A stretch of DNA of 64,000 nucleotides from an uncultured Planctomycetales bacterium (GTDB taxonomy: Bacteria; Omnitrophota; Gorgyraeia; Gygaellales; Profunditerraquicolaceae). The stretch is taken from positions 116-64,115 of the forward strand of contig CAYXSY010000007.1 in NCBI GenBank assembly GCA_964467905.1, written 5' to 3'. The position numbers were made by a program, and so were the translations under genes. Positions within the stretch are counted from its first letter, which is position 1. Each line of letters starts with the position of its first letter. The notes beneath the pieces are model-generated. The model ran no database searches, was not told the DNA's origin, and worked only from the letters and a program-made list of their open reading frames with translations. This document shows, one piece after another, positions 5,739-55,234 of the stretch.

Positions 5739-5771
5739 TTCTTTAACAAGCACGTCTTCATATCGTTTCCT

Positions 5772-19649: not shown

Positions 19650-20378
19650 ATGTCTAAAGATAAAAAAAATTCAGATTACAAAGTTTATATGAAGCAAATC
19701 GAAGCGCTTGCAAAGGTCGCAAGCCTCATTACTTCCGGTATGTATGTAGAAGAACTTTTGCGTTTGATTGTCAATGTTACGGCAGAAGTTATGAATTCTA
19801 AGATTTCGTCTTTGATGCTTTTAGATCCTGATAAAAAGGAATTGGTAATCAGGGCTACGCAATCGATATCAGAGGCTTATAATAAAAAGCCTAATATAAA
19901 AGTCGGCGATGGTATCGCCGGCATAGTGGCGAAAGAAAAGAAGCCGCTGTGTGTTTTAGACGTTAGAAAAGATCCGCGCTATATGAACAGGGATATAGCC
20001 ATAAAGGAAGGGTTGTATTCTTTAGCGAGCGTGCCTATGATAGTAAAGGGAAGACTCAAAGGGGTTATTAATTGTTATACTTCTAAGAAGCATGAGTTTA
20101 CCAAGGGTGAATTAGCTATACTTACTGCTTTGGCAAGTCAGGCAGCAGTGGCTATTGAGAATGCCGAGTTGGATGTGAGGGCGCGTACAGCCGAAGAGGC
20201 CCTTACCAGCCGTAAGATAATTGAGCGCGCAAAGGAAATTATAGCCCAGGAAACAAACATCCTTCCTTCTGAGGCGTACCGCTTGATACAGAAACAGAGC
20301 ATGGACAAGCGTAAAACTATGCGTGAGATTGCCGAAGCTATTATATTAGCTAAAGATGTAACTAATAAAAGTATTTAG
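19650..20378 (+). CDS. GAF-ANTAR one-component RNA-binding antiterminator (paralog 1)
   Basis: N-terminal GAF domain (LRLIVNVTAEVMNS...GVINCYT...AAVAIENAEL). C-terminal ANTAR three-helix region (SRKIIERAKEIIAQETNILPSEAYRLIQKQSMDKRKTMREIAEAIILA). No receiver domain. Confidence 0.85.
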   Translation: MSKDKKNSDYKVYMKQIEALAKVASLITSGMYVEELLRLIVNVTAEVMNSKISSLMLLDPDKKELVIRATQSISEAYNKKPNIKVGDGIAGIVAKEKKPLCVLDVRKDPRYMNRDIAIKEGLYSLASVPMIVKGRLKGVINCYTSKKHEFTKGELAILTALASQAAVAIENAELDVRARTAEEALTSRKIIERAKEIIAQETNILPSEAYRLIQKQSMDKRKTMREIAEAIILAKDVTNKSI

Positions 20379-24299: not shown

Positions 24300-24554
24300 T
24301 TGACAAGGCTCTAATAGTATGTTATTCTTTTCTTAACAATTTAAAAGAGCACAAGGTTGTGCTTAAGATAAAGGACAAAGGCGTTATATAACAATATAAC
24401 GCCTTTTTCTTTTTTATCCTATTCTATGTGAGAATAATTTTATAAAAGTAAGCCCTTCATGCCCGGTCACTTAGAGGGAGAACGGGGTTTTACTTTTTAT
24501 GTAAACAATGGCGTTTTATGCCGTAATCCGGCATAGAACGCCTTTTTATTTTTT
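24300..24554 (+). promoter_or_regulatory. promoter plus two tandem hexaloop-hairpin/terminator attenuators upstream of GAF-ANTAR paralog 2
   Basis: TTGACA (24300-24305), 17-nt spacer, TGtTATTCT (24320-24328). P1 AGCAC-AAGGTT-GTGCT at 24348-24363. P2 GAC-AAAGGC-GTT at 24374-24385, overlapping terminator 24377-24416 (GGCGTTATAT/ATATAACGCC + T-run). Second unit: AAAC-AATGGC-GTTT at 24503-24516, overlapping terminator 24510-24554 (14-bp stem + TTTTTATTTTTT). Confidence 0.7.
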
Positions 24555-24558
24555 AGCC

Positions 24559-25266
24559 ATGCAAAATTCATTTAATGAACAAATAAAGGCCCTTTCTAAA
24601 ATCAGTAAGGCGATTACTTCAGATTTCTATCTGGAGGATATATTGCGTCTGATTGTTACAGTTACGGCAGAAGTTTTAGATTCTAATATTTGTTCTTTGA
24701 TGCTTATTGATGAGAAAACTGGTGAATTAATTGTCCGGGCTACTCAGAGCGTAAGCGAAGAATACAATAAGAAGATGCCTCTTAAGGTTGGTGAAGGCAT
24801 TGCCGGCAAGGCGGTTGAACATAATAAGGCAATAGCAGTAAAGGATGTTACTAAAGAAAAAGAATATAAACATAAAGATGTCGCCAGAAAAGAAGGGCTC
24901 GTATCTTTGTTATGTGTCCCCATGTCGGTAAAGGGTAAAACAATCGGAGTAATTAATTGTTATACCGCCAAAGCACATAATTTCAGCGATACAGAGATAG
25001 AGATATTGACTACTATTGCCAATCAGGCGGCAGTAGCTATTGAGAATACCGAGCTTATGGTTAAAAGCAGGGTTATCCAGGAAGAACTGGAGACTCGCAA
25101 GAGGATTGAGCGCGCCAAAGGTGTTTTAATGCGTGATGAAAAACTCACTGAGGAACAGGCGTATTTAAAGATCCGTAAATATAGTATGGATAATCGTAAA
25201 AGCATGCGTGAAGTGGCGGAAGCGATTATCTTGGCAGCAGATATGAAGCAATTAATCAGGAGCTAA
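24559..25266 (+). CDS. GAF-ANTAR one-component RNA-binding antiterminator (paralog 2)
   Basis: Clear paralog of 19650-20378, with shared runs LRLIV.VTAEV, RATQS, GVINCYT, AAVAIEN and MRE.AEAIILA. The track start at 24508 lies inside the upstream terminator, so Met at 24559 (MQNSFNEQ...) is taken as the start. Confidence 0.85.
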   Translation: MQNSFNEQIKALSKISKAITSDFYLEDILRLIVTVTAEVLDSNICSLMLIDEKTGELIVRATQSVSEEYNKKMPLKVGEGIAGKAVEHNKAIAVKDVTKEKEYKHKDVARKEGLVSLLCVPMSVKGKTIGVINCYTAKAHNFSDTEIEILTTIANQAAVAIENTELMVKSRVIQEELETRKRIERAKGVLMRDEKLTEEQAYLKIRKYSMDNRKSMREVAEAIILAADMKQLIRS

Positions 25267-25368: not shown

Positions 25369-27021
25369 ATGAATCTTAGTAGGCCGAATGCGAATGATGC
25401 AACTGGTACGTTTAACCGCTCAAAAAATGTGGTTCCGGGTTCAGGTATTTGTTCCCGTTGTGTAGACGGCTGCAAGGGTAATTGTGAGATTTTTAAGGCA
25501 AGCTTCAGGGGCAGGGAAGTTATTTATCCGGGGCCTTTTGGTGATATAACCGCGGGTGCGGATAAAAATTATCCTGTCGATTATTCTCATTTTAATATCC
25601 AGGGCTATGCTTTAGGCGCTAAAGGTTTAAGTGAAGGTAGCGACGGTAACCCGGATAATACAAAATTCCCGGATGTGGATACTACGACAGAATACGGGTG
25701 GAGCTCTAAAGTTAAAATGGAAGTTCCTATATTTACCGGGGCTTTGGGTTCTACAGAGATTGCGCGTAAAAATTGGGAGCATTTTGCTGTAGGGGCTGGT
25801 ATATCAGGAATAACTTTGGTTTGCGGAGAAAATGTCTGTGGTATTGACCCCGGGCTTGAGCTTGATAGTAAAGGAAAAATTAAGAATTCTCCTGAGATGG
25901 ATCGTCGCATAGAAATATACAGGAGATTCCATAGGGGTTTTGGAGAGATCCTGGTGCAGATGAACGTAGAGGATACGCGTTTGGGAGTAGCTGAATATGT
26001 CCGTACAAAACATAAGTTAGAGACCATTGAGCTTAAATGGGGGCAAGGGGCTAAATGTATCGGAGGCGAAATAAAAGTCCGTAGCCTCGAACGGGCGCTG
26101 GAATTAAAGAAGCGGGGTTATATTGTTACTCCGGACCCGGGCTCAGAGGTTGTGCAGAAGGCGTTTAAAGATGGAGCGATTAAGGAATTTGAAAGGCATT
26201 CGCGCTTAGGTTTTGTCTCTGAAGAGGCATTCTTGGCGGAAATCAAACGCCTTAGAGATTTAGGTTTTAAGAGAATAACGCTTAAGACGGGGGCTTATTC
26301 TATGCGTGAATTGGCCATGGCTATCAAGTATTCTAGCCTTGCCGGGATTGATCTTCTGACTATTGACGGGGCGCCGGGAGGAACGGGTATGAGTCCGTGG
26401 CGGATGATGCAAGAGTGGGGCATCCCTACTTTTTATCTTGAAGCTTTGGCTTACGAGTTTTGTGATAAATTATCTAAGAAAGGCTTACGTGTGCCTGATA
26501 TCGCGATAGCCGGAGGGTTCTCAAGCGAAGACCATGTGTTTAAAGTAATTGCCATGGGCTCTCCTTATGTAAAGGCAGTTTGCATGGGCCGGGCGTTGAT
26601 GATTCCGGGTATGGTAGGCAAAAATATAGGACTTTGGATTAAGGAAGGCGATGTCCCCGTTACAATTTCTTCATATGGGCACACGGAAAAAGAGATATTT
26701 GTCTGTTATGAAGAGCTTATCGAGAAATATGGTAACGAGATGAAGGATATCCCCCTTGGTGCCATAGGTATATATTCTTTTGTCCAAAAAATAAAGGTTG
26801 GGTTGCAGCAACTTATGGCTGGCAGCAGGAATTTCCGGATAAGCACTATCTCCCGCAATGACCTCATGAGTTTGACCGAAGATGCGGCTAAGGTATCAGG
26901 AATTCCTTATGTGATGGATGCTTATCGCAGCGAAGCGGAGTCGATACTAAACGGGGAATCCGATGTAAGACCAGAAAGAGGTTTTGATCGGCAGCGCTTT
27001 AGCGTATCCGCAAGGAGGTAA
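25369..27021 (+). CDS. FMN-binding glutamate-synthase-domain-2-like protein (GltS-related, stand-alone)
   Basis: Homologous by eye to the GltB FMN/synthase domain (IDGAPGGTGMSP versus ISGGDGGTGASP in the window's own GltB; AGGFSSEDHVFKVIAMG). Has an N-terminal CSRCVDGCKGNCE Cys cluster. Confidence 0.7.
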   Translation: MNLSRPNANDATGTFNRSKNVVPGSGICSRCVDGCKGNCEIFKASFRGREVIYPGPFGDITAGADKNYPVDYSHFNIQGYALGAKGLSEGSDGNPDNTKFPDVDTTTEYGWSSKVKMEVPIFTGALGSTEIARKNWEHFAVGAGISGITLVCGENVCGIDPGLELDSKGKIKNSPEMDRRIEIYRRFHRGFGEILVQMNVEDTRLGVAEYVRTKHKLETIELKWGQGAKCIGGEIKVRSLERALELKKRGYIVTPDPGSEVVQKAFKDGAIKEFERHSRLGFVSEEAFLAEIKRLRDLGFKRITLKTGAYSMRELAMAIKYSSLAGIDLLTIDGAPGGTGMSPWRMMQEWGIPTFYLEALAYEFCDKLSKKGLRVPDIAIAGGFSSEDHVFKVIAMGSPYVKAVCMGRALMIPGMVGKNIGLWIKEGDVPVTISSYGHTEKEIFVCYEELIEKYGNEMKDIPLGAIGIYSFVQKIKVGLQQLMAGSRNFRISTISRNDLMSLTEDAAKVSGIPYVMDAYRSEAESILNGESDVRPERGFDRQRFSVSARR

Positions 27022-27023
27022 GC

Positions 27024-27212
27024 ATGGATAACAAAGGGTTATGTATCAATTGTGCTCACGATAAAACTTGCAGCTTTGTAAGATTTCCTTTGATTTTGCA
27101 GTGTGAAGAATTTGATATCGCTTCTGTTAGCACGGCAGAGCAAAAGTTGCAAAGTTTGAAAAAGAGCGCGCAGTATAAACCAGCTACAGAGCAAGAATAT
27201 ACTGTAGAATAA
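27024..27212 (+). CDS. small Cys-rich protein coupled to the GltS-like gene
   Basis: 62 aa with CINCAHDKTCSF...LQCEEF (a 4-Cys pattern). The start lies 2 nt after the upstream stop. Function unknown. Confidence 0.45.
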   Translation: MDNKGLCINCAHDKTCSFVRFPLILQCEEFDIASVSTAEQKLQSLKKSAQYKPATEQEYTVE

Positions 27213-27292: not shown

Positions 27293-27399
27293 TTGACAAA
27301 ACCCTCTGATATGGTAAAATAACTATACATAGGAGCAGTAGCAAGACAGAGAAGTCTTTTAGTAGAGCAAATGCTACTAAAAGACTTTTTTTATTTTTT
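27293..27399 (+). promoter_or_regulatory. promoter plus AAGAC-N6-GTCTT hairpin and leader terminator of the hydrogenase operon
   Basis: TTGACA (27293-27298), 16-nt spacer, TGgTAAAAT (27312-27320). Hairpin AAGAC-AGAGAA-GTCTT at 27343-27358 overlaps the 5' arm of a 13-bp terminator (27353-27365/27374-27386) followed by TTTTTTTATTTTTT. Confidence 0.7.
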
Positions 27400-27412
27400 A
27401 GCTGGTTTTCTA

Positions 27413-36773: not shown

Positions 36774-37227
36774 GCACAAAATTGTTGTCTTAGGTATAGG
36801 TTCTGATTTCAGGGGTGATGATGCCTCTGGGCTTATGGCCGCTAGAATTGTTTTAAGAAGGATATCCAGGCGTAAGACGCCAGGCAGAATTAGCGCGGTC
36901 TTTGCAGAGTCAGTTCCTGAAAATATCACAGGTTTAATCCGTAAGATAAAACCTGGCTACGTTATAGTTATTGATTCTGCGCATATAGGTAAGCAGGCTG
37001 GAGATTTTTGTGTCATTGAGCCCAGCGATATAGAAAATAATCTTGTCAGTACCCATAAAGTGTCTTTGGACGTGTTCTCTAGATATCTTGAGCAGAGTAT
37101 AGGTTGTAAAATGTTTATCGTTGGGATACAGCCTAAGTCTATAAAATTCGGTTCTTCTGTTACTAAACAGGTAGCATTAGCCGCAAAAAAAGTAGCCGTT
37201 ACGTTAATTGAGCTTGACAAGGCCTGA
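36730..37227 (+). CDS. hydrogenase maturation endopeptidase (HycI-like)
   Basis: KIVVLGIGSDFRGDDASG, then DSAH and VSTHK. Met at 36730 is chosen; the track start at 36688 lies deeper inside the previous gene. Confidence 0.75.
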   Translation: MNHLKEALRGKLKNKHKIVVLGIGSDFRGDDASGLMAARIVLRRISRRKTPGRISAVFAESVPENITGLIRKIKPGYVIVIDSAHIGKQAGDFCVIEPSDIENNLVSTHKVSLDVFSRYLEQSIGCKMFIVGIQPKSIKFGSSVTKQVALAAKKVAVTLIELDKA

Positions 37228-37359
37228 TTATATGGTATAATTTACTTGTAATAGATAAGAAAGACAAAGATGTCTTCAGGCAAATAGGCCTGAAGATTTT
37301 TTATTCTCTAGGACTAAGGCGTCCTTTTATCCGGTGGTGGGTAGAGGGACGTTTTTTTT
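37214..37359 (+). promoter_or_regulatory. promoter plus two tandem hairpin/terminator units upstream of the sigma-factor gene
   Basis: TTGACA (37214-37219), 16-nt spacer, TGgTATAAT (37233-37241). AAGAC-AAAGAT-GTCTT at 37261-37276 overlaps terminator TCTTCAGGC/GCCTGAAGA + TTTTTT (37273-37302). GGAC-TAAGGC-GTCC at 37311-37324 overlaps a second stem (37320-37328/37343-37351) followed by T8. Confidence 0.65.
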
Positions 37360-37375
37360 GTTTTAAAGGAGAGCC

Positions 37376-37900: not shown

Positions 37901-37971
37901 TTTTGTTGTTACCAATTCATGTAAATTGTTACTTGTATAAGTGAAACACATTGATGTGTAGTAGTAAAGCC

Positions 37972-38009
37972 AAGGATGCTTAAGTTTTAAGTATCCTTTT
38001 TTTGTTTTT
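37972..38009 (+). terminator. intrinsic terminator after the sigma-factor gene
   Basis: A 12-bp stem AAGGATGCTTAA/TTAAGTATCCTT (one G-U pair), 3-nt loop, then TTTTTTTGTTTTT. Confidence 0.75.
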
Positions 38010-38012
38010 ATC

Positions 38013-38066
38013 AAGACGTTGGTGTCTTTTTGGCATTGGAGTCGCCAGGAAGGCGCCATTTTTTTT
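38013..38066 (+). promoter_or_regulatory. AAGAC-N6-GTCTT hairpin plus U-run, then a GC hairpin plus T8; alternatively a sigma54-like -24/-12 element
   Basis: AAGAC-GTTGGT-GTCTT at 38013-38028, followed by TTT. CGCC-AGGAA-GGCG at 38043-38055, flanked by TGG/CCA and followed by T8 (38059-38066). TGGCAT-N5-TCGC at 38031-38045 matches the GG/GC spacing of sigma54 promoters. Confidence 0.4.
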
Positions 38067-38092
38067 GCGCAACCAGAAAAAGGAGAGGTTTT

Positions 38093-40531: not shown

Positions 40532-40611
40532 GCACATCGTAGTGCAAAAATAGGCATAAAGAAGACAGGGGCGTTCTTCAATCGCAAGGAAGGACGCCTC
40601 TTTATTTTTTT
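40532..40611 (+). promoter_or_regulatory. dual hexaloop hairpins plus terminator between glnK and glnN
   Basis: P1 GCAC-ATCGTA-GTGC at 40532-40545. P2 GAC-AGGGGC-GTT at 40564-40575, overlapping a 13-bp terminator stem (40567-40579/40589-40601) followed by TTTATTTTTTT. An extended -10 TGgTATAAT at 40620-40628 lies downstream of the terminator. Confidence 0.6.
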
Positions 40612-40656
40612 ATAGGCTGTGGTATAATAAAGAAAATTATTCATAGGAGGGTGTAT

Positions 40657-42849: not shown

Positions 42850-42905
42850 AAGCTTTTAGATATATAGAGTACGCTGTAGTATTCTAAAGAATATTTTCTA
42901 AGAAA

Positions 42906-42964
42906 GAACATCGACGTTCATAAAAGTTGGATTATTTTTCCAGCTTGGATGAACGTCTTTTTTT
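42906..42964 (+). promoter_or_regulatory. hexaloop hairpin overlapping a terminator between glnN and the mini-NtrC/gltB genes
   Basis: GAAC-ATCGAC-GTTC at 42906-42919 overlaps the 5' arm of stem GACGTTCAT/ATGAACGTC (42913-42921/42949-42957), followed by TTTTTTT. Confidence 0.55.
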
Positions 42965-43024
42965 ATCCATTATGCCATAATGGAATATTCTTATAACAAG
43001 CATTGATTAAGGTTTGGGCAAAAT

Positions 43025-43402
43025 ATGATAACTATATTGATAGCTGATGATGAAATTAAGGCAAAAGAAAACCTTGTTAACGTGTTAAAGCAGGGCGGCT
43101 ATGACTTAGCGGATGGTTTCGCGGCGGATAATACTATAAGATTTATGAGGAAGAAGGATATAAGTGATTTATCTTTCGTCAGGGATATAGTTATTGAGTT
43201 AGATGATTCTTTGATTAAAGAGAATAAGGGCGCATTATACAGAACTGTACTTGAGGCCATAGAAAAGCCTTTGTTTGAGCGCATACTGGAGCGTACAGAG
43301 GGCAATCAACTTAAAGCCGCTAGGATACTAGGGATAAACCGTAATACTATGCGTACCAAGATGAAGAAATTCGGGATAAATATAAACAAATGGAAAATAT
43401 GA
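43025..43402 (+). CDS. mini NtrC-like protein: receiver-domain remnant plus Fis-type HTH, no AAA+ domain
   Basis: The N-terminus MITILIADDEIKAKENLVNVLKQGGYDL looks like receiver beta1-alpha1-beta2. The C-terminus LYRTVLEAIEKPLFERILERTEGNQLKAARILGINRNTMRTKMKKFGI is a typical NtrC/Fis HTH_8. Only 125 aa. Overlaps the gltB start. Confidence 0.6.
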   Translation: MITILIADDEIKAKENLVNVLKQGGYDLADGFAADNTIRFMRKKDISDLSFVRDIVIELDDSLIKENKGALYRTVLEAIEKPLFERILERTEGNQLKAARILGINRNTMRTKMKKFGININKWKI

Positions 43403-47932: not shown

Positions 47933-49357
47933 ATGGGCGATATCAAGGGGTTCTTAAAGGTTAAAAGGGATACGGTCGATTACCGGCCGGTATGTGAAAG
48001 GGTAAACGATTTTTGTGAAGTTTGTCTTTTGCCTAAAGAAGAAAAGTCTAAGGCTCAAGCATCACGTTGTATGGATTGCGGCACTCCTTTTTGTAATTGG
48101 GCTTGTCCATTAGGAAATTATATACCGGAATGGAATGATTTTATGTTTAAGGGCAATTGGGAGAAAGCATTGGAGCTTTTATCGGCGACGAACAACCTGC
48201 CTGAGGTTACCGGCAGAATTTGCCCAGCCCTATGTGAATATTCCTGCGTTTTGGGCATTAATGACGAAGCTGTTTCTATCAAGGATAACGAGCTTGCAAT
48301 TATCGAGTACGGTTTCAAGCATAATTTAATCAAACCTAGGCCGCCGGAGCGCCGTACGGGAAAGAAAGTAGCTGTAGTCGGCTCGGGTCCGGCCGGGCTC
48401 TCTTGTGCAGATCAGTTAAATAAGGCAGGCCACAGGGTTGTTGTTTTTGAAAGAGATGATGCTATAGGCGGTATCTTGCGTTACGGGATACCGGATTTTA
48501 AATTGGAAAAAACTATACTTCAGCGGCGCCTGAATATTATGAAAAAGGAAGGCATCAAATTTATGACTTCGGTTAATATCGGGTTTGACATGGGTATAGA
48601 CAAGCTAAAGAAAGAATTTGATGCCATATGTCTTGCCGGTGGCAGCCGCGTTCCGCGCGATTTAAATATAGCAGGCAGAGAATTGAAGGGGATACATTTT
48701 GCCATGGATTATCTTATGCAGTCAAATAGGAGGATAGCTAAACAAAAAATAAGCCTAGAAAAGCTCATTGATGCTAAGGGCAAGAAGGTAGTAGTTATCG
48801 GAGGAGGAGATACTGGAGCTGATTGTGTGGGTGTCGCCCATCGTCAAGGAGCTTCCTGTATTGTGCAAATAGAATTGTTGCCTAAGCCTTCGGAATCAAG
48901 GACTAAAGATTTCCCTTGGCCGAAATACCCCGCAATTTTAAAGACTTCTACCAGTCATGATGAAGGCGGAGAGCGTCAATGGTCAATTCTCACCAAGCGT
49001 TTTATCGGAGAAGGTGGAAGGGCTAAAAAATTGCTTTGTGCCAAGGTTAATGTAATCAGGGATCCCTCCGGAGTTATTAAGATAGAGGAAATACGGGGGA
49101 CAGATTTTGAAATCGATGCCGATTTAGTTATTCTGGCGCTTGGGTTTTTGTGCCCTGAGAAAAAAGGCATTATCGAGGATTTGGGCCTTGAGCTTGATCA
49201 GCGCGGTAACGTTAAAACAGATATCAACTTTATGACTTCTATAAAAGGTATATTCTGCGCAGGAGATATGCATAGAGGACAATCTTTGGTGGTCTGGGCT
49301 ATTTTAGAGGCGCGTCGGGCAGCTCTTAGCATAGATAGGTATCTTATGTCTGATTAA
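47933..49357 (+). CDS. gltD: glutamate synthase small subunit (NADPH)
   Basis: RCMDCGTPFC and CPALCEYSC clusters, plus VAVVGSGPAGL and VVVIGGGDTGADC dinucleotide folds. Met at 47933 (MGDIKGF) follows the gltB stop by 1 nt. The track start at 47909 is rejected. Confidence 0.93.
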   Translation: MGDIKGFLKVKRDTVDYRPVCERVNDFCEVCLLPKEEKSKAQASRCMDCGTPFCNWACPLGNYIPEWNDFMFKGNWEKALELLSATNNLPEVTGRICPALCEYSCVLGINDEAVSIKDNELAIIEYGFKHNLIKPRPPERRTGKKVAVVGSGPAGLSCADQLNKAGHRVVVFERDDAIGGILRYGIPDFKLEKTILQRRLNIMKKEGIKFMTSVNIGFDMGIDKLKKEFDAICLAGGSRVPRDLNIAGRELKGIHFAMDYLMQSNRRIAKQKISLEKLIDAKGKKVVVIGGGDTGADCVGVAHRQGASCIVQIELLPKPSESRTKDFPWPKYPAILKTSTSHDEGGERQWSILTKRFIGEGGRAKKLLCAKVNVIRDPSGVIKIEEIRGTDFEIDADLVILALGFLCPEKKGIIEDLGLELDQRGNVKTDINFMTSIKGIFCAGDMHRGQSLVVWAILEARRAALSIDRYLMSD

Positions 49358-49388
49358 AAAGTGAGCATCTGTGGCTTTGCGTTTGGTA

Positions 49389-49497
49389 TTGACTTATAAT
49401 TATGTCGTGGTATAATTTAAGTGTAATTCAGGGTAGAATTGCTATAAAACAATGGCGTTTAGAGATAGGAAAATTGTCTCTAAGCGCCATTTTTATT
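49389..49497 (+). promoter_or_regulatory. promoter plus canonical dual-hexaloop (ANTAR-type) attenuator of the pyrG-carAB-purF operon
   Basis: TTGACT (49389-49394), 16-nt spacer, TGgTATAAT (49408-49416). P1 GTAATTC-AGGGTA-GAATTGC at 49423-49442. 4-nt linker. P2 AAAC-AATGGC-GTTT at 49447-49460, overlapping a 14-bp terminator stem (49452-49465/49477-49490) followed by TTTTATT. Confidence 0.75.
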
Positions 49498-49514
49498 GAG
49501 TAAAAGGAAAGATT

Positions 49515-51122
49515 ATGCCTAAATATATATTTGTTACCGGCGGGGTGATATCAAGCTTAGGTAAGGGAATAGCTTGCGCGTCTATCGGCAAGATACTTGA
49601 ATCCCGGGGGATAAAGGTTACCCTGATGAAGCTTGACCCTTATATAAATGTTGACCCCGGGACTATGAATCCTTATCAGCATGGCGAGGTATATGTTACT
49701 GAAGATGGAGCCGAAACGGACCTTGATTTAGGTCATTATGAGCGTTTTACTAATGCCGAAATGACCAAGTTTAACAATGCCACAAGCGGCAGTGTCTATA
49801 ATTCAGTTATTTTAAGAGAGAGGCGCGGCGATTATCTGGGGAAAACTATACAAGTTATCCCGCATATCACTAACGAAATAAAAGACAGGATTAGGAGGGT
49901 CGCCGATACATCTGGGGCAGAGGTAATATTGGTTGAGATCGGCGGCACTGTCGGGGATATAGAAAGTCTCCCTTTCTTAGAGGCAGTCAGGCAATTTAAG
50001 CTCGACATTGGCGAAGGCAATGTTTTATACGTCCATTTGACCCTCGTTCCATATATAAAATGCGCCGAAGAAATAAAAACCAAACCCACCCAGCATAGCG
50101 TTGGCACACTAAGAGAGATTGGTATACAGCCAGATATACTTATTTGCCGTACAGAGAAGCCGCTTTCAGGTGAAGTTAAAGAAAAGATTTCTTTGTTTTG
50201 CAATGTAGCTAAGGAAAGCGTGATTGAGGCCATTGATGTCGATACTATATATCGCCTGCCACTGGTTTTTAAGTCGCAGGTTTTAGATGAAATAATATTG
50301 AGTCATTTTAAACTGATACGTAAGTCTTCGGATTTAAAGGATTGGGAAAAAATGGTAGTAGATAAGACCATAAACCCCAAGAAAGAGGTTAGAATTGCCT
50401 TAGTCGGCAAATATATAGCGCTTCAGGATGCGTATAAATCCATATATGAATCTTTAGTCCATGCAGGGATACACAATGACGCCAAGGTTTATATTAAGAA
50501 AGTAGATTCTGAAGAGATAGAAGAAAAAGGCGTGGAGTGTATGTTGGCTGATGTCTGCGGCGTGTTAGTCCCGGGAGGATTCGGCTCAAGAGGCATTGAG
50601 GGAAAAATCAAAGCTATCCAATACGCACGTAAGAATAAGATTCCGTTTTTCGGACTATGCCTTGGTATGCAGTGCGCAGTTATTGAATTTGCGCGGCATG
50701 TTTGTGCCTTGGGGGGAGCTAATTCTACAGAGTTTAACATTAAAACCAAACATCCGGTTATAAGCTTGCTTGCTCAACAGCGTAATATTAAAGATCTCGG
50801 CGGGACAATGCGCCTGGGATCCTATCCGTGTAAAATCAAGAAAAGAACCCTGGCTTATTCGGTGTATTCTAAAGACCTTATCCATGAGAGGCACAGGCAT
50901 CGCTATGAATTCAATAACAAATACCGCAGCGTCTTAGAGAAAAAAGGCATGATTTTCTCCGGGATATATGCTAAAAAGGATTTGGTGGAGATAGTTGAAT
51001 TGAAGGACCATCCGTTTTTCATCGCTGTTCAGTTCCATCCAGAATTCAAGTCTAAACCTGATAAAGCCCATCCTTTATTCAGGGATTTTATTAAGGCGGC
51101 AGTCGATAAAGCAGAAAAATAA
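49515..51122 (+). CDS. pyrG: CTP synthase
   Basis: [18 protein letters not shown], and a GATase domain with GLCLGMQ and HRHRYE. Confidence 0.95.
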
Positions 51123-51126
51123 AGAT

Positions 51127-52206
51127 ATGAAAGCAATATTAGCATTAGAAGACGGAAAGACCTTTAAGGGGCATTCTTTCGGTGCTCAGGGAGAATGTTC
51201 CGGGGAAGTTGTTTTTAATACCAGCATGACCGGTTACCAGGAGATATTGACTGATCCTTCCTATAAGGGGCAGATTGTTGCTATGACTTATCCGTTGATA
51301 GGAAACTACGGAGTCAATAGAGATGATGTAGAATCACGCAAGCTATTCCTTGAGGGTTTTGTAGTAAAAGAATACAGTAAAATAGCAAGCAATTGGCGTT
51401 CTCAGGAAGATATAGGAGATTATTTAAATAAGAATAATATCCTTGGTGTCGAAGGTATAGATACAAGGGCTCTTACCTTGCATATAAGGCATGCTGGAGC
51501 GATGAAGGCTGTTTTGTCTACAGTTGATTTAGATGAGAAAAGTTTAATCCGTAAGGCCAAGAGTTCCCCCGGATTAGTGGGCATAGATCTGGTAAAAGAG
51601 GTGTCTATCCGCAAGCAATATACTTGGGATAAGGCTAAGCATAAGTTTAAGGTTGTCGTACTTGATTGCGGAGTAAAGTATAATATATTGCGTAGCCTGC
51701 TTAAGCGTGACTGCCAGGTTATAGTGGTTCCGGCTCGCACAGGCTATGATGAGATTATGAAGCTTAAACCCGATGGCGTGCTTCTTTCTAATGGCCCGGG
51801 AGACCCGGCTGTAGTCTGCTATGTAGTCGATACAACCAAGAAGCTTATCGGTAAGATACCGGTATTTGGCATATGCTTAGGCCATCAGATGATGGGCTTG
51901 GCTTTAGGCGCTAAGACTTACAAGCTGAAGTTCGGACATCACGGGGCAAACCACCCGGTAAAAGATCTGCGCACAGGTAAGGTTTATATAACTTCTCAGA
52001 ATCACGGTTTCTGCGTGAATATAGATACGCTTAATAAAAAGGAAATAGAATTAACGCATATGAATCTCAATGATAATACCCTTGAGGGTTTGAAACACAA
52101 GAAATTCCCTGCTTTTTCAGTGCAGTTTCATCCTGAAGCTTCTCCCGGTCCGCAGGAATCAGCATATTTGTTTGATGAGTTCATTAAGATGATGAAGAAT
52201 AGATAA
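51127..52206 (+). CDS. carA: carbamoyl-phosphate synthase small (glutaminase) subunit
   Basis: GICLGHQ catalytic Cys, a QFHPEA His/Glu motif, and the N-terminal CarA-specific domain. Confidence 0.93.
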   Translation: MKAILALEDGKTFKGHSFGAQGECSGEVVFNTSMTGYQEILTDPSYKGQIVAMTYPLIGNYGVNRDDVESRKLFLEGFVVKEYSKIASNWRSQEDIGDYLNKNNILGVEGIDTRALTLHIRHAGAMKAVLSTVDLDEKSLIRKAKSSPGLVGIDLVKEVSIRKQYTWDKAKHKFKVVVLDCGVKYNILRSLLKRDCQVIVVPARTGYDEIMKLKPDGVLLSNGPGDPAVVCYVVDTTKKLIGKIPVFGICLGHQMMGLALGAKTYKLKFGHHGANHPVKDLRTGKVYITSQNHGFCVNIDTLNKKEIELTHMNLNDNTLEGLKHKKFPAFSVQFHPEASPGPQESAYLFDEFIKMMKNR

Positions 52207-52209
52207 AAT

Positions 52210-53862
52210 ATGCCTAAACGCACAGATATTAAGAAAATATTGATTATCGGCTCAGGCCCTATAGTTATCGGACAGGCATGCGAGTTCGATTATTCTGGTT
52301 CGCAGGCATGCAAAGTATTAAAACAGGAAGGCTACAAAGTAGTTTTGGTTAACTCTAACCCCGCGACAATTATGACCGATCCCGAGATAGCAGATAGTAC
52401 TTATGTTGAGCCGATTACTCCGGAGATGGTTGCAAAAATTATAGCCAAGGAAAAACCCGATGCTATTCTGCCGACTCTTGGTGGACAGACCGCCTTAAAT
52501 ACTGCTGTCAAGCTGCATGAAATGGGCGTGTTGAAGAAATATAAAGTAGAGACCATAGGGGCAGATATTAAGTCCATCAAAAAAGGTGAAGATAGGCAGT
52601 TGTTTAAAAAAGCCATGCAGAAGATAGGCCTGGATTTACCACGTAGTGGACAAGCCTATAATCTTAATCAGGCTATTGAAATCGCACGCTTAATAGGTTT
52701 CCCTGTGATTATCCGCCCGAGTTTTACCTTGGGAGGTACTGGTGGCAGCATAGCTTATAACATAGAGGAATTCCGGGTATTAGCCAAGAGGGGCCTAGAG
52801 TCTAGCATGATTAGCGAAATATTGATAGAAGAATCGGTTATCGGATGGAAAGAGTTTGAGCTGGAAGTCATGCGTGACTTAAAAGATAATGTCGTCATAA
52901 TTTGTTCTATAGAGAACTTTGATCCTATGGGTGTGCATACGGGAGACAGCATTACTGTAGCGCCTATCCAGACTTTGACAGACAAAGAATATCAGCGTAT
53001 GCGCGATGCATCAATTGCCTGCATAAGAGAAATCGGGGTTGCTACAGGAGGCTCAAACATCCAATTTGCAGTAAACCCTAAGAACGGACGCATGGTAGTT
53101 ATCGAGATGAATCCCAGGGTTTCCCGCAGCTCGGCTTTAGCATCTAAGGCTACGGGTTTTCCTATTGCAAAAATAGCCGCCAAGCTTGCCGTAGGCTATA
53201 CTCTTGATGAGATAGCCAATGATATAACCAAGCAGACGCCGGCTTGTTTTGAGCCAGCTATAGATTATTGTGTGGTAAAGATACCGCGTTTTACTTTTGA
53301 GAAGTTTTCTTCGGCGGATCCTACGCTCGGGGTTTCTATGAAATCAGTAGGTGAAGTTATGTCTATCGGCAGGACTTTTAAAGAGGCGCTGCAGAAGGCA
53401 TTAAGATCGCTTGAAATAGGCTTAAGCGGACTGGATAATCTAAAAGAAGATGTACCCGATGAAGACCTGAAGAATAAAATATCTTCGCCCAACGCCCTGA
53501 GGATATTGTATATAAAATATGCGCTTCAAAACGGATATACGATAGACAAGATTAATGAATTGACTGGTATCGACAAGTGGTTTTTAGAAAATATCCGCCA
53601 GATAATAGAGTTAGAAGATAAAATAAAACAGGGATTGAAATTAGAACAGAGCCAAAAAGCTTTCTCTTTATTGAGGCAAGCTAAGGAATGGGGATTTTCT
53701 GACCGGCAATTAGCTAGAATGTTAGAATATGATGAAGAAACTGTAAGGAGCTGGCGCAAAAAAATCGGGATAGAGCCGAGTTACAGGCTGGTCGATACTT
53801 GCGCCGCGGAATTCCAGGCGTTTACTCCTTATTATTATTCTTCTTACGAACAGGATAAATAA
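52210..53862 (+). CDS. carB: carbamoyl-phosphate synthase large subunit, N-terminal half only (split CarB)
   Basis: [20 protein letters not shown], an ATP-grasp domain ([16 protein letters not shown]) and the oligomerisation domain. It ends at ...[22 protein letters not shown], exactly where full-length CarB continues into its second ATP-grasp half. purF starts 2 nt later. Confidence 0.85.
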
Positions 53863-53863
53863 A

Positions 53864-55234
53864 ATGTGCGGGATATTCGGAATATACCCTCATAAGGATG
53901 CAGCACGTTATACCTACCTTGGGCTTTATGCATTGCAGCACAGAGGCGAGGAGTCCAGCGGGATAGTGTCCCGTTGCGGCAGGAAAGTATATCTGCATAA
54001 ATCTACCGGTTTGGTCAGTGACGTGTTTAATGAGAAAAATATACGCAGTTTAAAGGGCGAGCTTTCGATAGGGCATGTGCGTTATTCTACCACAGGCAGC
54101 AGCAATATTAAGAATACCCAGCCTTTTTATGTAAAGTCAAAGATAGGCGATATCGCTATAGCGCATAACGGTAATCTAGTTAATACGTTGCAGCTAAAGG
54201 CTGAATTAGAAAATAACGGTGCTATATTTCAGACTACGATGGATTCAGAAATTGTCGCGCATCTTCTTGCACATAGTAAAACCAAAGATTATAAACAGGC
54301 TGTTATAGAATCTCTGTTAAAGTTAAAAGGTGCCTATTCTTTAGTATTTATGCTTAATGATATACTTATTGGTTCAAGGGATCCATTTGGATGGCGTCCT
54401 TTGTGCTTAGGCAGGTTGAATGGGGCCTATGTTTTAGCAAGCGAGACGGTGGCCTTGGATTTGGTGGGAGCTAAATATGTAAGAGACATAGAGCCGGGGG
54501 AAATAGTCTTTATCCATAAAGATAGTTTCGAATCCGTAAAACCTTTTGGTAGCAGCCCGCATGCATTCTGTATATTTGAATATATTTATTTTGCGCGTCC
54601 CGACAGCAATATCTTTGGTAATAATGTTTACAGCGTAAGGAGGAAGTTGGGTGAACGGTTGGCAAAAGAGCATCCGGCAGACGCAGATTTAGTTATGCCT
54701 ATACCTGATTCCGGTACATATGCTGCTTTAGGTTATTCTAACGCAAGCGGCATACCTTTTGAGTTCGGTATGATCCGTAACCATTATATAGGCAGAACCT
54801 TTATTCAACCTAGCCAGGATATGCGTGATTTCAGGGTGAAGGTTAAGTTAAATCCTCTCGGCGAGGTATTAAGGGGCAAAAGAATAGCTATTATAGAAGA
54901 TTCTATTGTCAGAGGCACGACAAGCAGGATGAGGGTAAGAGCCTTGCGTCAAGCAGGAGCTAAAGAAGTCCATATGCGCGTCAGTTGCCCGCCGCTGAAA
55001 TACCCATGTTTTTACGGAATAGATTTTCCTACGAAAAAAGAACTTATAGCCTCAGGCCACGATATTAAATGGATTAAGGATTTTATAGGAGCAGATACTT
55101 TGGAGTATTTATCTCTTGAAGGGATGCTTTCTTCTATGCCTCTGCCGAAAGAAGAATTTTGTACCGCCTGTTTTACCGGAAAATATCCGGTTAGCCCGTC
55201 TTGCCGCCTTTCAAAGTGTGCCCTGGAAAGATAA
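53864..55234 (+). CDS. purF: amidophosphoribosyltransferase
   Basis: MCGIFG N-terminal Cys nucleophile, a PRTase motif (IAIIEDSIVRGTT), and [4Fe-4S] Cys residues (CPPLKYPCFYGIDFP; CTACFTG). Confidence 0.93.
   Translation: MCGIFGIYPHKDAARYTYLGLYALQHRGEESSGIVSRCGRKVYLHKSTGLVSDVFNEKNIRSLKGELSIGHVRYSTTGSSNIKNTQPFYVKSKIGDIAIAHNGNLVNTLQLKAELENNGAIFQTTMDSEIVAHLLAHSKTKDYKQAVIESLLKLKGAYSLVFMLNDILIGSRDPFGWRPLCLGRLNGAYVLASETVALDLVGAKYVRDIEPGEIVFIHKDSFESVKPFGSSPHAFCIFEYIYFARPDSNIFGNNVYSVRRKLGERLAKEHPADADLVMPIPDSGTYAALGYSNASGIPFEFGMIRNHYIGRTFIQPSQDMRDFRVKVKLNPLGEVLRGKRIAIIEDSIVRGTTSRMRVRALRQAGAKEVHMRVSCPPLKYPCFYGIDFPTKKELIASGHDIKWIKDFIGADTLEYLSLEGMLSSMPLPKEEFCTACFTGKYPVSPSCRLSKCALER

What the first reader, a model, noticed from the sequence alone, without database searches (positions are those of the whole stretch)
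49389..49497. Textbook dual-hexaloop ANTAR substrate in front of pyrG-carA-carB'-purF
A near-consensus extended -10 promoter is followed by P1 (7 bp, loop AGGGTA), a 4-nt linker and P2 (4 bp, loop AATGGC). The GGCGTTT segment is shared by P2 and a 14-bp terminator. Both loops have A1/G4. The operon behind it consists only of glutamine amidotransferases (CTP synthase, CPSase, PurF). The attenuator would therefore ration glutamine-consuming biosynthesis, which is not the usual pyrimidine/purine-specific control (PyrR, PurR, reiterative transcription).
Basis: partly seen in the sequence, partly recalled or inferred. Interest (0 to 1): 0.75.

Follow-up and report, generated by a model that had tools for sequence, protein, structure and literature searches.

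The report
ANTAR antitermination leader before pyrG operon
The stretch in front of the CTP-synthase operon is very probably a protein-controlled "stop/read-through" RNA switch of the known ANTAR type, one of about ten such switches in a nitrogen-assimilation gene cluster of an uncultivated Omnitrophota bacterium; what appears to be unreported is that it ties three glutamine-consuming nucleotide-synthesis enzymes to that nitrogen regulon.

Summary
An 11/12 sigma-70 promoter with a TG-extended -10 (49389-49416) is followed by P1 (7 bp, loop AGGGTA), a 4-nt linker, P2 (AAAC[AATGGC]GTTT) and an 18-pair terminator (49451-49491) that swallows the P2 loop and 3' arm.

The ANTAR reading is well supported:
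- Two GAF-ANTAR proteins are encoded in the same window (19650-20378 and 24559-25266).
- GAF-ANTAR2 is preceded by two tandem leaders of the same design. One carries the identical AAACAATGGCGTTT.
- Similar leaders precede GSIII, gltBD, amtB-glnK, a sigma-type gene and an Mrp-like operon.
- The motif ACRNNGGCGTT occurs 6 times against 0.28 expected.
- Promoter, P1, P2 and terminator recur before pyrG in four related Omnitrophota contigs, whatever gene lies upstream.
- A model trained only on pyrG leaders finds the ANTAR-gene leaders (E about 1e-4) and nothing better than E 0.5 in 1.5 Mb of other lineages.

Limits: P2 alone is near chance, covariation rests on few sequences, and loops are not always hexaloops with A1 in relatives.

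ANTAR nitrogen regulons have been known since 2010-2012, so this is a new member of a known kind. The pyrG-carA-carB'-purF cargo appears unreported. The signal and direction of control are inferred, not shown.

The parts
49389..49394 (+). -35 hexamer TTGACT of the leader promoter
   Evidence: TTGAC(A/T) with a 16-nt spacer is conserved in L001, L081, L086, L088 and L089.
49408..49416 (+). Extended -10, TGgTATAAT
   Evidence: 11/12 matches, TG present. The same TGnTAnAnT is seen in five related leaders.
49423..49442 (+). P1 ('recruitment') hairpin: 7-bp stem GTAATTC/GAATTGC, hexaloop AGGGTA (A1, G4)
   Evidence: Shuffle p = 0.004. The stem is kept with different sequences in L081, L086, L088 and L089.
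49443..49446 (+). Linker TATA
   Evidence: Linkers are about 3-10 nt in relatives.
49447..49460 (+). P2 ('antiterminator') hairpin AAAC[AATGGC]GTTT, -0.6 kcal/mol on its own
   Evidence: The core ACRNNGGCGTT is enriched 6 vs 0.28. The identical 14-mer sits in the GAF-ANTAR2 leader at 24503-24516.
49451..49491 (+). Intrinsic terminator hairpin (18 pairs, loop of 5), mutually exclusive with P2
   Evidence: P2 loop position 3 co-varies with the 3' arm in relatives (pair 44-85).
49490..49497 (+). U-tract TTTTTATT
49505..49511 (+). Shine-Dalgarno-like AGGAAAG, 3 nt before the ATG
   Evidence: read from the sequence.
49515..51122 (+). pyrG, glutamine-hydrolysing CTP synthase
   Evidence: NF003792, 857 bits.
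51127..52206 (+). carA, CPSase glutamine-amidotransferase subunit
   Evidence: TIGR01368, 533 bits.
52210..53862 (+). carB', N-terminal half of the CPSase large subunit (profile positions 1-543 of 1058)
   Evidence: No C-terminal half is found in the window.
53864..55234 (+). purF, amidophosphoribosyltransferase
   Evidence: TIGR01134, 543 bits.
19650..20378 (+). GAF-ANTAR regulator 1 (candidate trans-factor)
   Evidence: ANTAR PF03861, E 1.3e-17; GAF_2, E 1.9e-21. 55% identical to regulator 2.
24559..25266 (+). GAF-ANTAR regulator 2 (candidate trans-factor). The start is probably the ATG at 24559, not the ORF-caller's 24508.
   Evidence: PDB relatives are PtsP/Nlh1 GAF domains and the EutV/Rv1626/NasR ANTAR domains.
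24300..24415 (+). Sibling leader A before GAF-ANTAR2: promoter, GAGCAC[AAGGTT]GTGCTT, 9-nt linker, GAC[AAAGGC]GTT, terminator 24377-24406
   Evidence: Hit by model R1 at E 5e-5.
24471..24555 (+). Sibling leader B before GAF-ANTAR2: AAAC[AATGGC]GTTT plus terminator 24507-24545
   Evidence: Hit by model R1 at E 2e-4.
40532..40612 (+). Sibling leader before GSIII: GCAC[ATCGTA]GTGC, 18-nt linker, GAC[AGGGGC]GTT, terminator 40565-40603
   Evidence: Model R1 E 0.19.
42867..42965 (+). Sibling leader before HTH_8-gltB-gltD: GAGTAC[GCTGTA]GTATTC, 21-nt linker, GAAC[ATCGAC]GTTC, long terminator
37214..37363 (+). Possible related leader before a sigma-70-region-4 gene: promoter, AAGAC[AAAGAT]GTCTT plus terminator 37272-37297, then GGAC[TAAGGC]GTCC plus terminator 37316-37355
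37950..38068 (+). Possible related leader before unk276-amtB-glnK: ACAC[ATTGAT]GTGT, terminator 37972-37998, AAGAC[GTTGGT]GTCTT plus terminator 38018-38060
27293..27400 (+). Possible related leader before the Mrp/complex-I-like operon: promoter, AAGAC[AGAGAA]GTCTT plus terminator 27348-27391

Best explanation
The 49389-49497 segment is a 5' leader that controls pyrG-carA-carB'-purF by ANTAR-type transcription antitermination.

Proposed mechanism:
1. A strong promoter with an extended -10 starts an RNA whose first element is hairpin P1.
2. By default the very stable terminator (about -26 kcal/mol) forms and transcription stops at the U-tract about 20 nt before pyrG.
3. When one or both of the GAF-ANTAR proteins encoded 25-30 kb upstream are in their active state, they bind the A..G.. 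loops. P1 serves for recruitment. P2 is the weak AAAC[AATGGC]GTTT hairpin.
4. This holds the GGCGTTT segment away from the terminator's 3' arm, and RNA polymerase reads through.

The same logic is used at the regulator's own gene, at GSIII, at gltBD, and probably at amtB-glnK and others. CTP synthase, carbamoyl-phosphate synthetase and PurF are therefore co-regulated with nitrogen assimilation.

Shown: the structures, their mutual exclusivity, conservation, and co-occurrence with ANTAR genes.

Inferred: that these proteins bind this RNA; that the GAF domains sense nitrogen status (glutamine and/or 2-oxoglutarate, by analogy with PtsP and NifA GAF domains); and the direction of the response.
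For: Structure:
- Architecture and energetics.
- P1 is unlikely by chance (0.4% of shuffles).

Regulators and sibling leaders in the window:
- Two full-length ANTAR domains fused to GAF are encoded in the window. Their closest solved relatives are the EutV, Rv1626 and NasR ANTAR domains and the PtsP/Nlh1 GAF domains. The best NCBIfam partial hits are the PtsP and NifA GAF regions.
- ACRNNGGCGTT occurs 6 times vs 0.28 expected. Four copies sit on + strand leader terminators (24375, 24505, 40565, 49449).
- AAGACNNNGNNGTCTT occurs 3 times vs 0.00 expected, all on leader terminators.

Conservation:
- Homologous pyrG leaders with the same promoter spacing, P1, AAAC-RNNGGC-GTTT and terminator occur in L081, L086, L088 and L089, although the upstream gene differs (gltD, GluSyn550, gdhA).
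- 90.6% of cells pair, against 46-57% in slid controls.
- Model R1, trained only on the five pyrG leaders, finds leaders before GAF-ANTAR genes in the window (E 5e-5 and 2e-4), in L005 (3e-5) and in L084. It finds nothing better than E 0.5 in 1.54 Mb of other lineages.
- P1 pairs in 44 of 48 cells of the non-training + strand rows, on a model-fitted alignment.
- In L005, carA-carB-pyrG lie directly downstream of [leader]-GAF-ANTAR-GluSyn550.

Literature:
- The definition of the motif and the nitrogen regulons: PMC3369931.
- A single hexaloop is contacted per dimer, with a recruitment-then-antitermination model: PMC8934654.
- The Geobacter GnfR site CAGGCAANGGCGCC can be read as GGC[AANGGC]GCC, the same loop consensus as P2 here (PMC2995071; the reading is my inference).
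Against: - There are no experimental data. The organism is uncultivated, and the window's PyrG is not even on record elsewhere.
- P2 is a low-information element. Such a hairpin is found at 8 of 11 leader terminators against 3.6 expected from shuffling.
- Only five clear pyrG leaders are available, with just 2 pairs showing compensatory change. The larger alignment is model-fitted and so leans towards the structure.
- In relatives the loops are not always canonical: L088 P1 is the pentaloop AACGG, L005 and L084 have 7-nt loops, the L081 P2 loop is GATGGC and the L089 P1 loop is GAAGCG, both with G at position 1.
- The L001 and L084 pyrG leaders keep the terminator but lack a clean P1/P2.
- Several close relatives (L083, L085, L087, L090) have no pyrG leader at all.
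- Rfam has no matching family, so no curated model confirms membership.
- The motif patterns tested for enrichment were derived from the same window.
Confidence: 0.8

Rival explanations
1. The hairpin is just an ordinary intrinsic terminator or insulator that ends gltBD transcription. P1 and P2 are fortuitous small hairpins in AT-rich spacer DNA.
For: - P2-like hairpins arise by chance about half the time at this terminator.
- Dual hexaloops are not enriched window-wide.
- There is no terminator between the gltD stop (49357) and the promoter, so read-through from gltBD would also meet this hairpin.
Against: - A conserved near-consensus promoter sits between gltD and the hairpin, so the terminator lies inside a 5' leader.
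- The module travels with pyrG behind three different upstream genes.
- P1 has p = 0.004 by shuffling and is structurally conserved.
- The same P2 14-mer lies in front of an ANTAR gene.
Confidence: 0.06
2. It is a nucleotide-sensing attenuator. It could act by CTP-sensitive reiterative transcription, as at Bacillus subtilis or Lactococcus pyrG, or by PyrR protein binding, as at Gram-positive pyr/carAB leaders.
For: - pyrG and carAB are classically controlled this way in Firmicutes (my background knowledge).
- The L086 P1 contains CAGAGAGG, which resembles the PyrR binding-loop core (my reading).
Against: - No G-run is present at the predicted start (TTAAGTGTAA), and the terminator 5' arm has no CU-rich stretch to pair with poly-G.
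- The start regions are not conserved among relatives.
- There is no PyrR (or any other) Rfam hit in the window leader or in L086 even at E <= 10, and none at gathering level in eight related loci.
- The conserved core is AAC-ANNGGC-GTT, shared with non-pyrimidine genes (GAF-ANTAR, GSIII).
Confidence: 0.04
3. The leader is a regulated attenuator, but it is read by a different factor: an unrecognised RNA-binding protein, a small RNA, or a small-molecule (for example glutamine) riboswitch. The ANTAR proteins would act only on other leaders.
For: - Binding has not been tested.
- The window holds two sequence classes of P2 and two regulators, so specificity is unresolved.
- The terminator-loop sequence CTATCGG is conserved among related pyrG leaders, though not in this window, which hints at extra constraints.
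Against: - The leader is too small (about 75 nt, one hairpin plus the terminator) for known riboswitch folds.
- No Rfam hit, including the glutamine riboswitches.
- The leader shares its exact P2 with the ANTAR gene's own leader, the usual signature of one regulon.
Confidence: 0.1

Closest known systems
EutV/EutW-controlled eut leaders of Enterococcus faecalis (the dual-hexaloop ANTAR substrate; PMC3369931, PMC8934654)
   Same: - Two short hairpins with A1/G4 hexaloops and a short linker.
- P2 is embedded in the 5' arm of an intrinsic terminator, and P2 is too weak to form unaided.
- Several such leaders occur within one gene cluster.
   Different: - The regulator here is a one-component GAF-ANTAR protein, not a phosphorylated REC-ANTAR response regulator.
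- The cargo is nucleotide/nitrogen biosynthesis, not ethanolamine catabolism.
- P1 (7 bp) sits at the very 5' end of the transcript.
Predicted ANTAR nitrogen regulons of Desulfotomaculum acetoxidans, D. reducens, Desulforudis and Carboxydothermus (Ramesh et al. 2012, Table S2 / Fig. 9)
   Same: - Many attenuators (13 in six transcription units in D. acetoxidans) lie upstream of amtB, P-II, GS and GOGAT.
- RNA hits also lie in front of the ANTAR gene itself.
- This is the same overall design as the 17-55 kb cluster here.
   Different: - pyrG, carAB and purF do not appear among the listed targets.
- The phylum differs (Omnitrophota vs Firmicutes).
- The regulators listed for Desulforudis and Carboxydothermus are ANTAR-containing response regulators.
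[quoted passage not shown]
   Same: - An ANTAR protein relieves leader terminators of nitrogen genes.
- The conserved site CAGGCAANGGCGCC overlaps the terminator and can be read as a 3-bp stem with an AANGGC loop, the P2 loop consensus found here (AATGGC, AAAGGC, AAGGGC).
   Different: - GnfR is activated by a histidine kinase and sits under sigma-54/GnfLM control.
- Here the promoters are sigma-70-like with an extended -10, and the regulators carry GAF sensor domains.
NasR/nasF (Klebsiella), NasT/NasS and AmiR/amiE leaders
   Same: An ANTAR output domain, a hexaloop hairpin with A1/G4 upstream of a terminator, and nitrogen-related cargo.
   Different: The sensors are NIT, a NasS partner, or the AmiC partner. 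Each controls a single-operon target rather than a multi-operon cluster.
Bacillus subtilis / Lactococcus lactis pyrG attenuator (CTP-sensitive reiterative transcription; background knowledge)
   Same: It works on the same gene by conditional read-through of a leader terminator.
   Different: That mechanism is protein-independent and needs a GGGC start plus a complementary CU-rich terminator arm. Neither is present here.

Membership tests
ANTAR target RNA (dual-hairpin antiterminator, Ramesh et al. 2012) | Two tandem stem-loops with at least 3 bp in each stem | tested here: met
   P1 has 7 bp (49423-29 with 49436-42). P2 has 4 bp (49447-50 with 49457-60)..
ANTAR target RNA (dual-hairpin antiterminator, Ramesh et al. 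2012) | Hexanucleotide terminal loops with A at position 1 and G at position 4 | tested here: met
   The loops are AGGGTA and AATGGC. G4 is kept in all homologous leaders. A1 is replaced by G in the L081 P2 and L089 P1 loops, and loop length is 5-7 nt in L088, L005 and L084.
ANTAR target RNA (dual-hairpin antiterminator, Ramesh et al. 2012) | Short, variable linker between P1 and P2 (a 20-nt extension abolishes EutV action, PMC8934654) | tested here: met
   The linker is 4 nt here and about 3-10 nt in the related pyrG leaders. It is 18-21 nt in the GSIII and gltB leaders, which is at the edge of the tolerated range.
ANTAR target RNA (dual-hairpin antiterminator, Ramesh et al. 2012) | P2 overlaps the 5' arm of an intrinsic terminator (mutually exclusive folds) | tested here: met
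   The terminator at 49451-49491 uses the whole P2 loop and 3' arm: -32.3 kcal/mol against -6.7 for P1+P2.
ANTAR target RNA (dual-hairpin antiterminator, Ramesh et al. 2012) | An ANTAR-domain protein is encoded in the same genome, typically nearby and often preceded by the same motif | tested here: met
   Two GAF-ANTAR genes are present. The second is preceded by two such leaders.
ANTAR target RNA (dual-hairpin antiterminator, Ramesh et al. 2012) | Loop-dependent binding by the ANTAR dimer and protein-dependent read-through | not testable with these tools
   This needs EMSA, in vitro transcription or reporter assays.
pyrG reiterative-transcription attenuator (Bacillus/Lactococcus type) | Transcript starts with GGGC/GGGU, and the terminator 5' arm is complementary to a poly-G extension | tested here: not met
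   The region after the -10 is TTAAGTGTAA, and the terminator 5' arm is AATGGCGTTTAGAGATAG. No conserved G-run is present in relatives.
PyrR binding site (Rfam RF00515) | Match to the PyrR binding-loop covariance model | tested here: not met
   No hit at E <= 10 in window 49300-49600 or in L086 5840-6010. No hit at gathering level in the window or in eight related loci.
Glutamine riboswitches and any other Rfam cis-regulator | Match to a curated covariance model | tested here: not met
   No family reached its gathering score in the 64-kb window. The best sub-threshold hits are structurally trivial (trpB motif, 27 bits against a gathering score of 59).

The most novel reading that the evidence does not exclude
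Two paralogous one-component GAF-ANTAR proteins sense glutamine and/or 2-oxoglutarate directly. Through two sequence classes of antiterminator hairpin, AAC-ANNGGC-GTT and AAGAC-NNNGNN-GTCTT, they would run a 'glutamine-budget' regulon. That regulon would couple nitrogen uptake and assimilation (amtB-glnK, GSIII, GOGAT, GDH) to three glutamine-consuming enzymes at the head of nucleotide synthesis (PyrG, CPSase, PurF). It would also reach a sigma-type factor and an Mrp/complex-I-like operon. Nitrogen status would then replace, or sit above, the usual pyrimidine- and purine-specific control in this Omnitrophota lineage.
Probability: 0.2. Interest if true: 0.65.

Novelty: new member of a known kind. 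Interest (0 to 1): 0.45.

Why it matters
If confirmed, it extends the ANTAR nitrogen regulon from assimilation genes to the enzymes that spend glutamine on CTP, carbamoyl phosphate and purines. This gives a concrete, testable example of nitrogen-status control of nucleotide synthesis at the level of transcription elongation.

It also offers a compact natural system for asking what GAF-ANTAR proteins sense. The system comprises two GAF-ANTAR paralogues and about ten leaders within 35 kb. No GAF-ANTAR protein had been characterised as of Ramesh et al. 2012 (PMC3369931), and none turned up in my library searches. It would also document RNA-based regulation in Omnitrophota, a phylum with no cultured representative. 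It does not reveal a new mechanism.

Tried and rejected
- Rfam. At gathering level on the whole window and on eight related loci, and at E <= 10 on the leader and its L086 homologue, only a tRNA and chance-level hits appeared. This rejects PyrR, glutamine riboswitches and every other curated family.
- Plain dual-hexaloop scan of the window. It is not enriched (2 found vs 3 expected), so the bare motif cannot carry the argument.
- Shuffle test of P2 at 11 leader terminators. Enrichment is only modest (8 vs 3.6 expected). My first back-of-envelope estimate of strong significance was wrong.
- Leaders upstream of pyrG in 160 PyrG loci. The leader exists only in the closest Omnitrophota relatives; other apparent hits are noise.
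- MAFFT alignment of seven leaders. L084 and L001 do not align in P1 and were dropped. MAFFT also puts L086 and L088 one column out of register in P1, which depresses the counts.
- Exact-sequence look-up of the window's PyrG, to find the source contig and the missing carB half. It is not on record.
- Leader-peptide idea. The only small ORF (ATG at 49403) starts upstream of the -10, so it would not be in the transcript.
- Literature. No paper in the searched library combines ANTAR with CTP synthase or with Omnitrophota. A word-start search for 'ANTAR' plus 'pyrG' was swamped by 'Antarctic'.
- Not run. I did not run the large protein-database searches or structure prediction, because their results would not change the verdict.
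Full report
**1. What is in the sequence**

Reading 49100-49800 shows gltD ending at 49357. The following elements come next:
- TTGACT at 49389-49394, a 16-nt spacer, and TGgTATAAT at 49408-49416.
- GTAATTC[AGGGTA]GAATTGC at 49423-49442 (P1).
- TATA (linker).
- AAAC[AATGGC]GTTT at 49447-49460 (P2).
- A long hairpin followed by TTTTTATT.
- AGGAAAG, then the pyrG ATG at 49515.

The promoter scan scores the site 11/12 with TG. That is second only to another leader promoter in this half of the window. The same scan reports the terminator as 18 pairs (49451-49491) with a loop of 5. RNAfold gives P1 plus the terminator at -32.3 kcal/mol, with z = -6.8 against dinucleotide shuffles. P1+P2 is worth only -6.7 and P2 alone -0.6 kcal/mol. 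The nascent RNA up to 49476 folds as P1+P2, and the terminator takes over once its 3' arm is made.

**2. Is it more than chance?**

Partly, and it matters which part.
- Dual A..G.. hexaloops with stems of at least 4 bp occur twice in the window, against about 3 expected.
- A P2-like hairpin appears at this terminator in about half of the shuffles of the upstream 30 nt.
- A 7-bp hairpin with an A1/G4 hexaloop in the 30 nt between the -10 and P2 occurs in only 0.4% of shuffles.

The weight of the argument therefore lies in P1, in the placement, and in the context described next.

**3. Context**

Pfam and NCBIfam show that 17-55 kb is a co-directional nitrogen cluster. The gene order is:
- nadE, an AsnC-type regulator, an aminotransferase, GAF-ANTAR1 (19650-20378);
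- a DHOD-B-like/GltA-type pair, gdhA, GAF-ANTAR2, a 550-aa Glu_synthase-domain protein;
- an Mrp/complex-I-like operon, a sigma-70 region-4 protein, an unknown 276-aa protein;
- amtB, P-II, type III glutamine synthetase, a small HTH_8 protein, gltB, gltD;
- then pyrG, carA, the N-terminal half of carB, and purF.

The last four genes are separated by 1-4 nt and end against a convergent TPR gene. Both regulators have a complete ANTAR domain (E 1e-17 and 1e-20). By sequence, their closest solved relatives are the ANTAR domains of a response regulator (6wsh/6ww6; 6WW6 is the EutV-RNA complex of PMC8934654), Rv1626 and NasR, and the GAF domains of PtsP (enzyme I-Ntr) and the NifA-like Nlh1. The best NCBIfam partial hits are likewise the PtsP and NifA GAF regions.

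**4. Sibling leaders in the window**

The ORF caller starts GAF-ANTAR2 at 24508, but that ATG lies inside a terminator. The real start is probably 24559. Upstream of it, a TG-extended promoter (24300-24328) is followed by two tandem attenuators:
- GAGCAC[AAGGTT]GTGCTT, 9 nt, GAC[AAAGGC]GTT, and terminator 24377-24406.
- AAAC[AATGGC]GTTT plus terminator 24507-24545. Its P2 is identical to that of the pyrG leader.

The GSIII leader has GCAC[ATCGTA]GTGC and GAC[AGGGGC]GTT on a terminator. The gltBD leader has GAGTAC[GCTGTA]GTATTC and GAAC[ATCGAC]GTTC on a terminator.

The pattern ACRNNGGCGTT occurs 6 times against 0.28 expected, and 4 of these sit on + strand leader terminators. A second hairpin type, AAGAC-NNNGNN-GTCTT, occurs 3 times against 0.00 expected. 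All three sit on leader terminators, before the Mrp-like operon, the sigma-type gene and amtB-glnK. Both patterns were derived from this window, so the enrichments are descriptive rather than independent tests.

**5. Relatives**

The PyrG protein places the window in Candidatus Omnitrophota. The best identities are 74% to an Omnitrophica MAG and 73-77% to ten metagenome contigs. In these relatives pyrG-carA-carB always lies next to nitrogen genes, namely gltBD, the GltA-type pair, gdhA, the 550-aa protein or GAF-ANTAR genes.

Four relatives (L081, L086, L088, L089) have the same module in front of pyrG:
- TTGAC(A/T), a 16-nt spacer and TGnTAnAnT;
- a hairpin right at the transcript start;
- AAAC-RNNGGC-GTTT;
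- a terminator.

The gene upstream of the module differs among them (gltD, the 550-aa protein, gdhA). The module therefore belongs to pyrG and not to the preceding operon.

The P1 stems differ in sequence:
- window: GTAATTC/GAATTGC;
- L081: GCGTAGT..C/G..ACTACGC;
- L089: AGTAG..TC/GA..CTACT;
- L086: AGTGT..TC/GA..ACATT.

On the MAFFT alignment, 90.6% of cells pair, against 46-57% when partners are slid. P2 loop position 3 co-varies with the terminator 3' arm (U-A, A-U, G-C). With five sequences, however, only two pairs show compensatory change.

The motif is not rigid:
- L088 P1 has a pentaloop.
- The L081 P2 and L089 P1 loops start with G.
- L001 and L084 keep the terminator without a clean P1/P2.
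- L083, L085, L087 and L090 have no leader before pyrG.
- No PyrG locus below 70% identity has such a leader before pyrG.

**6. An independent test with a covariance model**

Model R1 was built only from the five pyrG leaders, using P1 plus the terminator base as structure. Its hits outside the training set were:
- the two leaders before GAF-ANTAR2 in the window (E 5e-5 and 2e-4);
- the leader before the GAF-ANTAR gene of L005 (3e-5);
- three hits in L084 around its tandem GAF-ANTAR genes;
- the degenerate pyrG leaders of L001 and L084;
- more weakly, the GSIII leader (0.19) and the leader of the 550-aa protein in L082 (0.21).

In 1.54 Mb from other lineages the best hit has E 0.5. Across the 14 + strand members, 93% of cells pair. 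In the non-training rows P1 pairs in 44 of 48 cells. These counts come from a model-fitted alignment and lean towards the structure.

In L005 the order is gltBD-[leader]-GAF-ANTAR-550-aa protein-small ORF-carA-carB-pyrG. The link between these amidotransferase genes and the ANTAR-controlled cluster therefore survives rearrangement.

**7. Mechanism**

The best-supported explanation is classical ANTAR antitermination. The default state is termination. An active ANTAR dimer binds the P1 loop, then the P2 loop, which keeps GGCGTTT out of the terminator.

This matches the definition in Ramesh et al. 2012: stems of at least 3 bp, A1/G4 hexaloops, a variable linker, and a terminator overlapping P2. 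It also matches the recruitment-then-antitermination model of Walshe et al. 2022. That model accepts single hexaloops as minimal sites, which may explain the class II leaders that lack a clear P1.

The GAF sensor, its resemblance to the PtsP and NifA GAF domains, and the cargo suggest that glutamine and/or 2-oxoglutarate is the signal. This step is an inference. That PtsP and NifA GAF domains bind these ligands is my background knowledge and was not tested here. The direction of control cannot be read from sequence. Sharing the motif with GSIII and gltBD suggests co-induction with assimilation genes.

**8. Rivals**

- Plain terminator of gltBD. This is contradicted by the conserved promoter and by the module's mobility with pyrG.
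- Reiterative-transcription control as in Bacillus pyrG. The G-run start and the CU-rich arm are both missing.
- PyrR. There is no Rfam hit even at E <= 10, including in L086, whose P1 contains CAGAGAGG.
- A riboswitch or another factor. This cannot be excluded without binding data, but it is disfavoured by the small size of the leader and by the P2 shared with the ANTAR gene's own leader.

**9. Comparison with what is known, and novelty**

ANTAR control of nitrogen genes is established. It was shown experimentally for GnfR in Geobacter. It was predicted computationally for many genomes, including 13 attenuators in six nitrogen transcription units of Desulfotomaculum acetoxidans and motifs in front of the ANTAR genes themselves.

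The Geobacter site CAGGCAANGGCGCC can be read as GGC[AANGGC]GCC. That is the P2 loop consensus found here (my reading).

pyrG, carAB and purF do not appear in the text of that survey or in its held supplementary tables. No paper in the searched library combines ANTAR with CTP synthase or with Omnitrophota.

The finding is thus a new member of a known kind, with an unusual cargo, a new phylum and GAF-type sensors. A specialist would find it neat rather than very surprising. I score interest at 0.45 and confidence in the ANTAR-attenuator reading at 0.8. The specific 'glutamine rationing' physiology is less certain.

Noticed in passing
window 27343-27358, 37261-37276, 38013-38028: A second hairpin class, AAGAC-NNNGNN-GTCTT, occurs 3 times against 0.00 expected. 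Each copy overlaps a leader terminator, before an Mrp/complex-I-like operon, a sigma-70-region-4 gene and unk276-amtB-glnK. No clear P1 is visible. This class might be read by the other GAF-ANTAR paralogue.
   Followed up: partly
window 24508 vs 24559; 27371 vs 27414: The mechanical ORF starts of GAF-ANTAR2 and of the first Mrp-like gene fall inside terminator hairpins. The real starts are probably the next in-frame ATGs, at 24559 and 27414.
   Followed up: partly
window 52210-53862: carB encodes only the N-terminal half (profile positions 1-543 of 1058). The window contains no C-terminal half. In the relative L001, a C-half lies between carB-N and purF. This points to a split CPSase large subunit whose second half is encoded elsewhere.
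   Followed up: partly
window 27024-27212; L005 5117-5275; L084 about 5715-5900: A conserved small Cys-rich ORF (62 aa, MDNKGLCINCAHDKTCSF...LQCEEF) lies directly after the 550-aa Glu_synthase-domain protein in the window and in two relatives. I did not search it against any family library.
   Followed up: no
window 25369-27021: A 550-aa protein has only a weak partial Glu_synthase (FMN) domain hit and no NCBIfam family. It is 57-86% identical in relatives, always lies in the ANTAR-controlled cluster, and in L082 has its own ANTAR-like leader (L082 3931-4002).
   Followed up: no
window 37214-37363: The leader of the sigma-type gene carries two terminators in tandem (37272-37297 and 37316-37355), each overlapped by a hexaloop hairpin. 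It lies behind a perfect 12/12 extended -10 promoter.
   Followed up: no
window 40619-40630: A TGgTATAAT lies downstream of the GSIII leader terminator. GSIII may therefore have its own promoter, and the 40565-40603 hairpin may gate read-through from amtB-glnK rather than a dedicated leader.
   Followed up: no
L081 2030-2045, L086 5935-5950, L088 1972-1985, L089 5880-5895: The apical part of the terminator in related pyrG leaders carries a conserved (A)CTATCGG sequence that is absent from the window's leader. The reason is unknown.
   Followed up: no
window 43025-43402: A small (125 aa) protein with a Fis-type HTH_8 domain overlaps the start of gltB by 13 nt and lies behind the gltB leader. 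It is a possible DNA-binding co-regulator of the cluster.
   Followed up: no
L085 4620-7614: In one relative, purF lies immediately upstream of pyrG (purF-pyrG-carA-carB) with no leader between them. The amidotransferase genes stay together while their order changes.
   Followed up: partly
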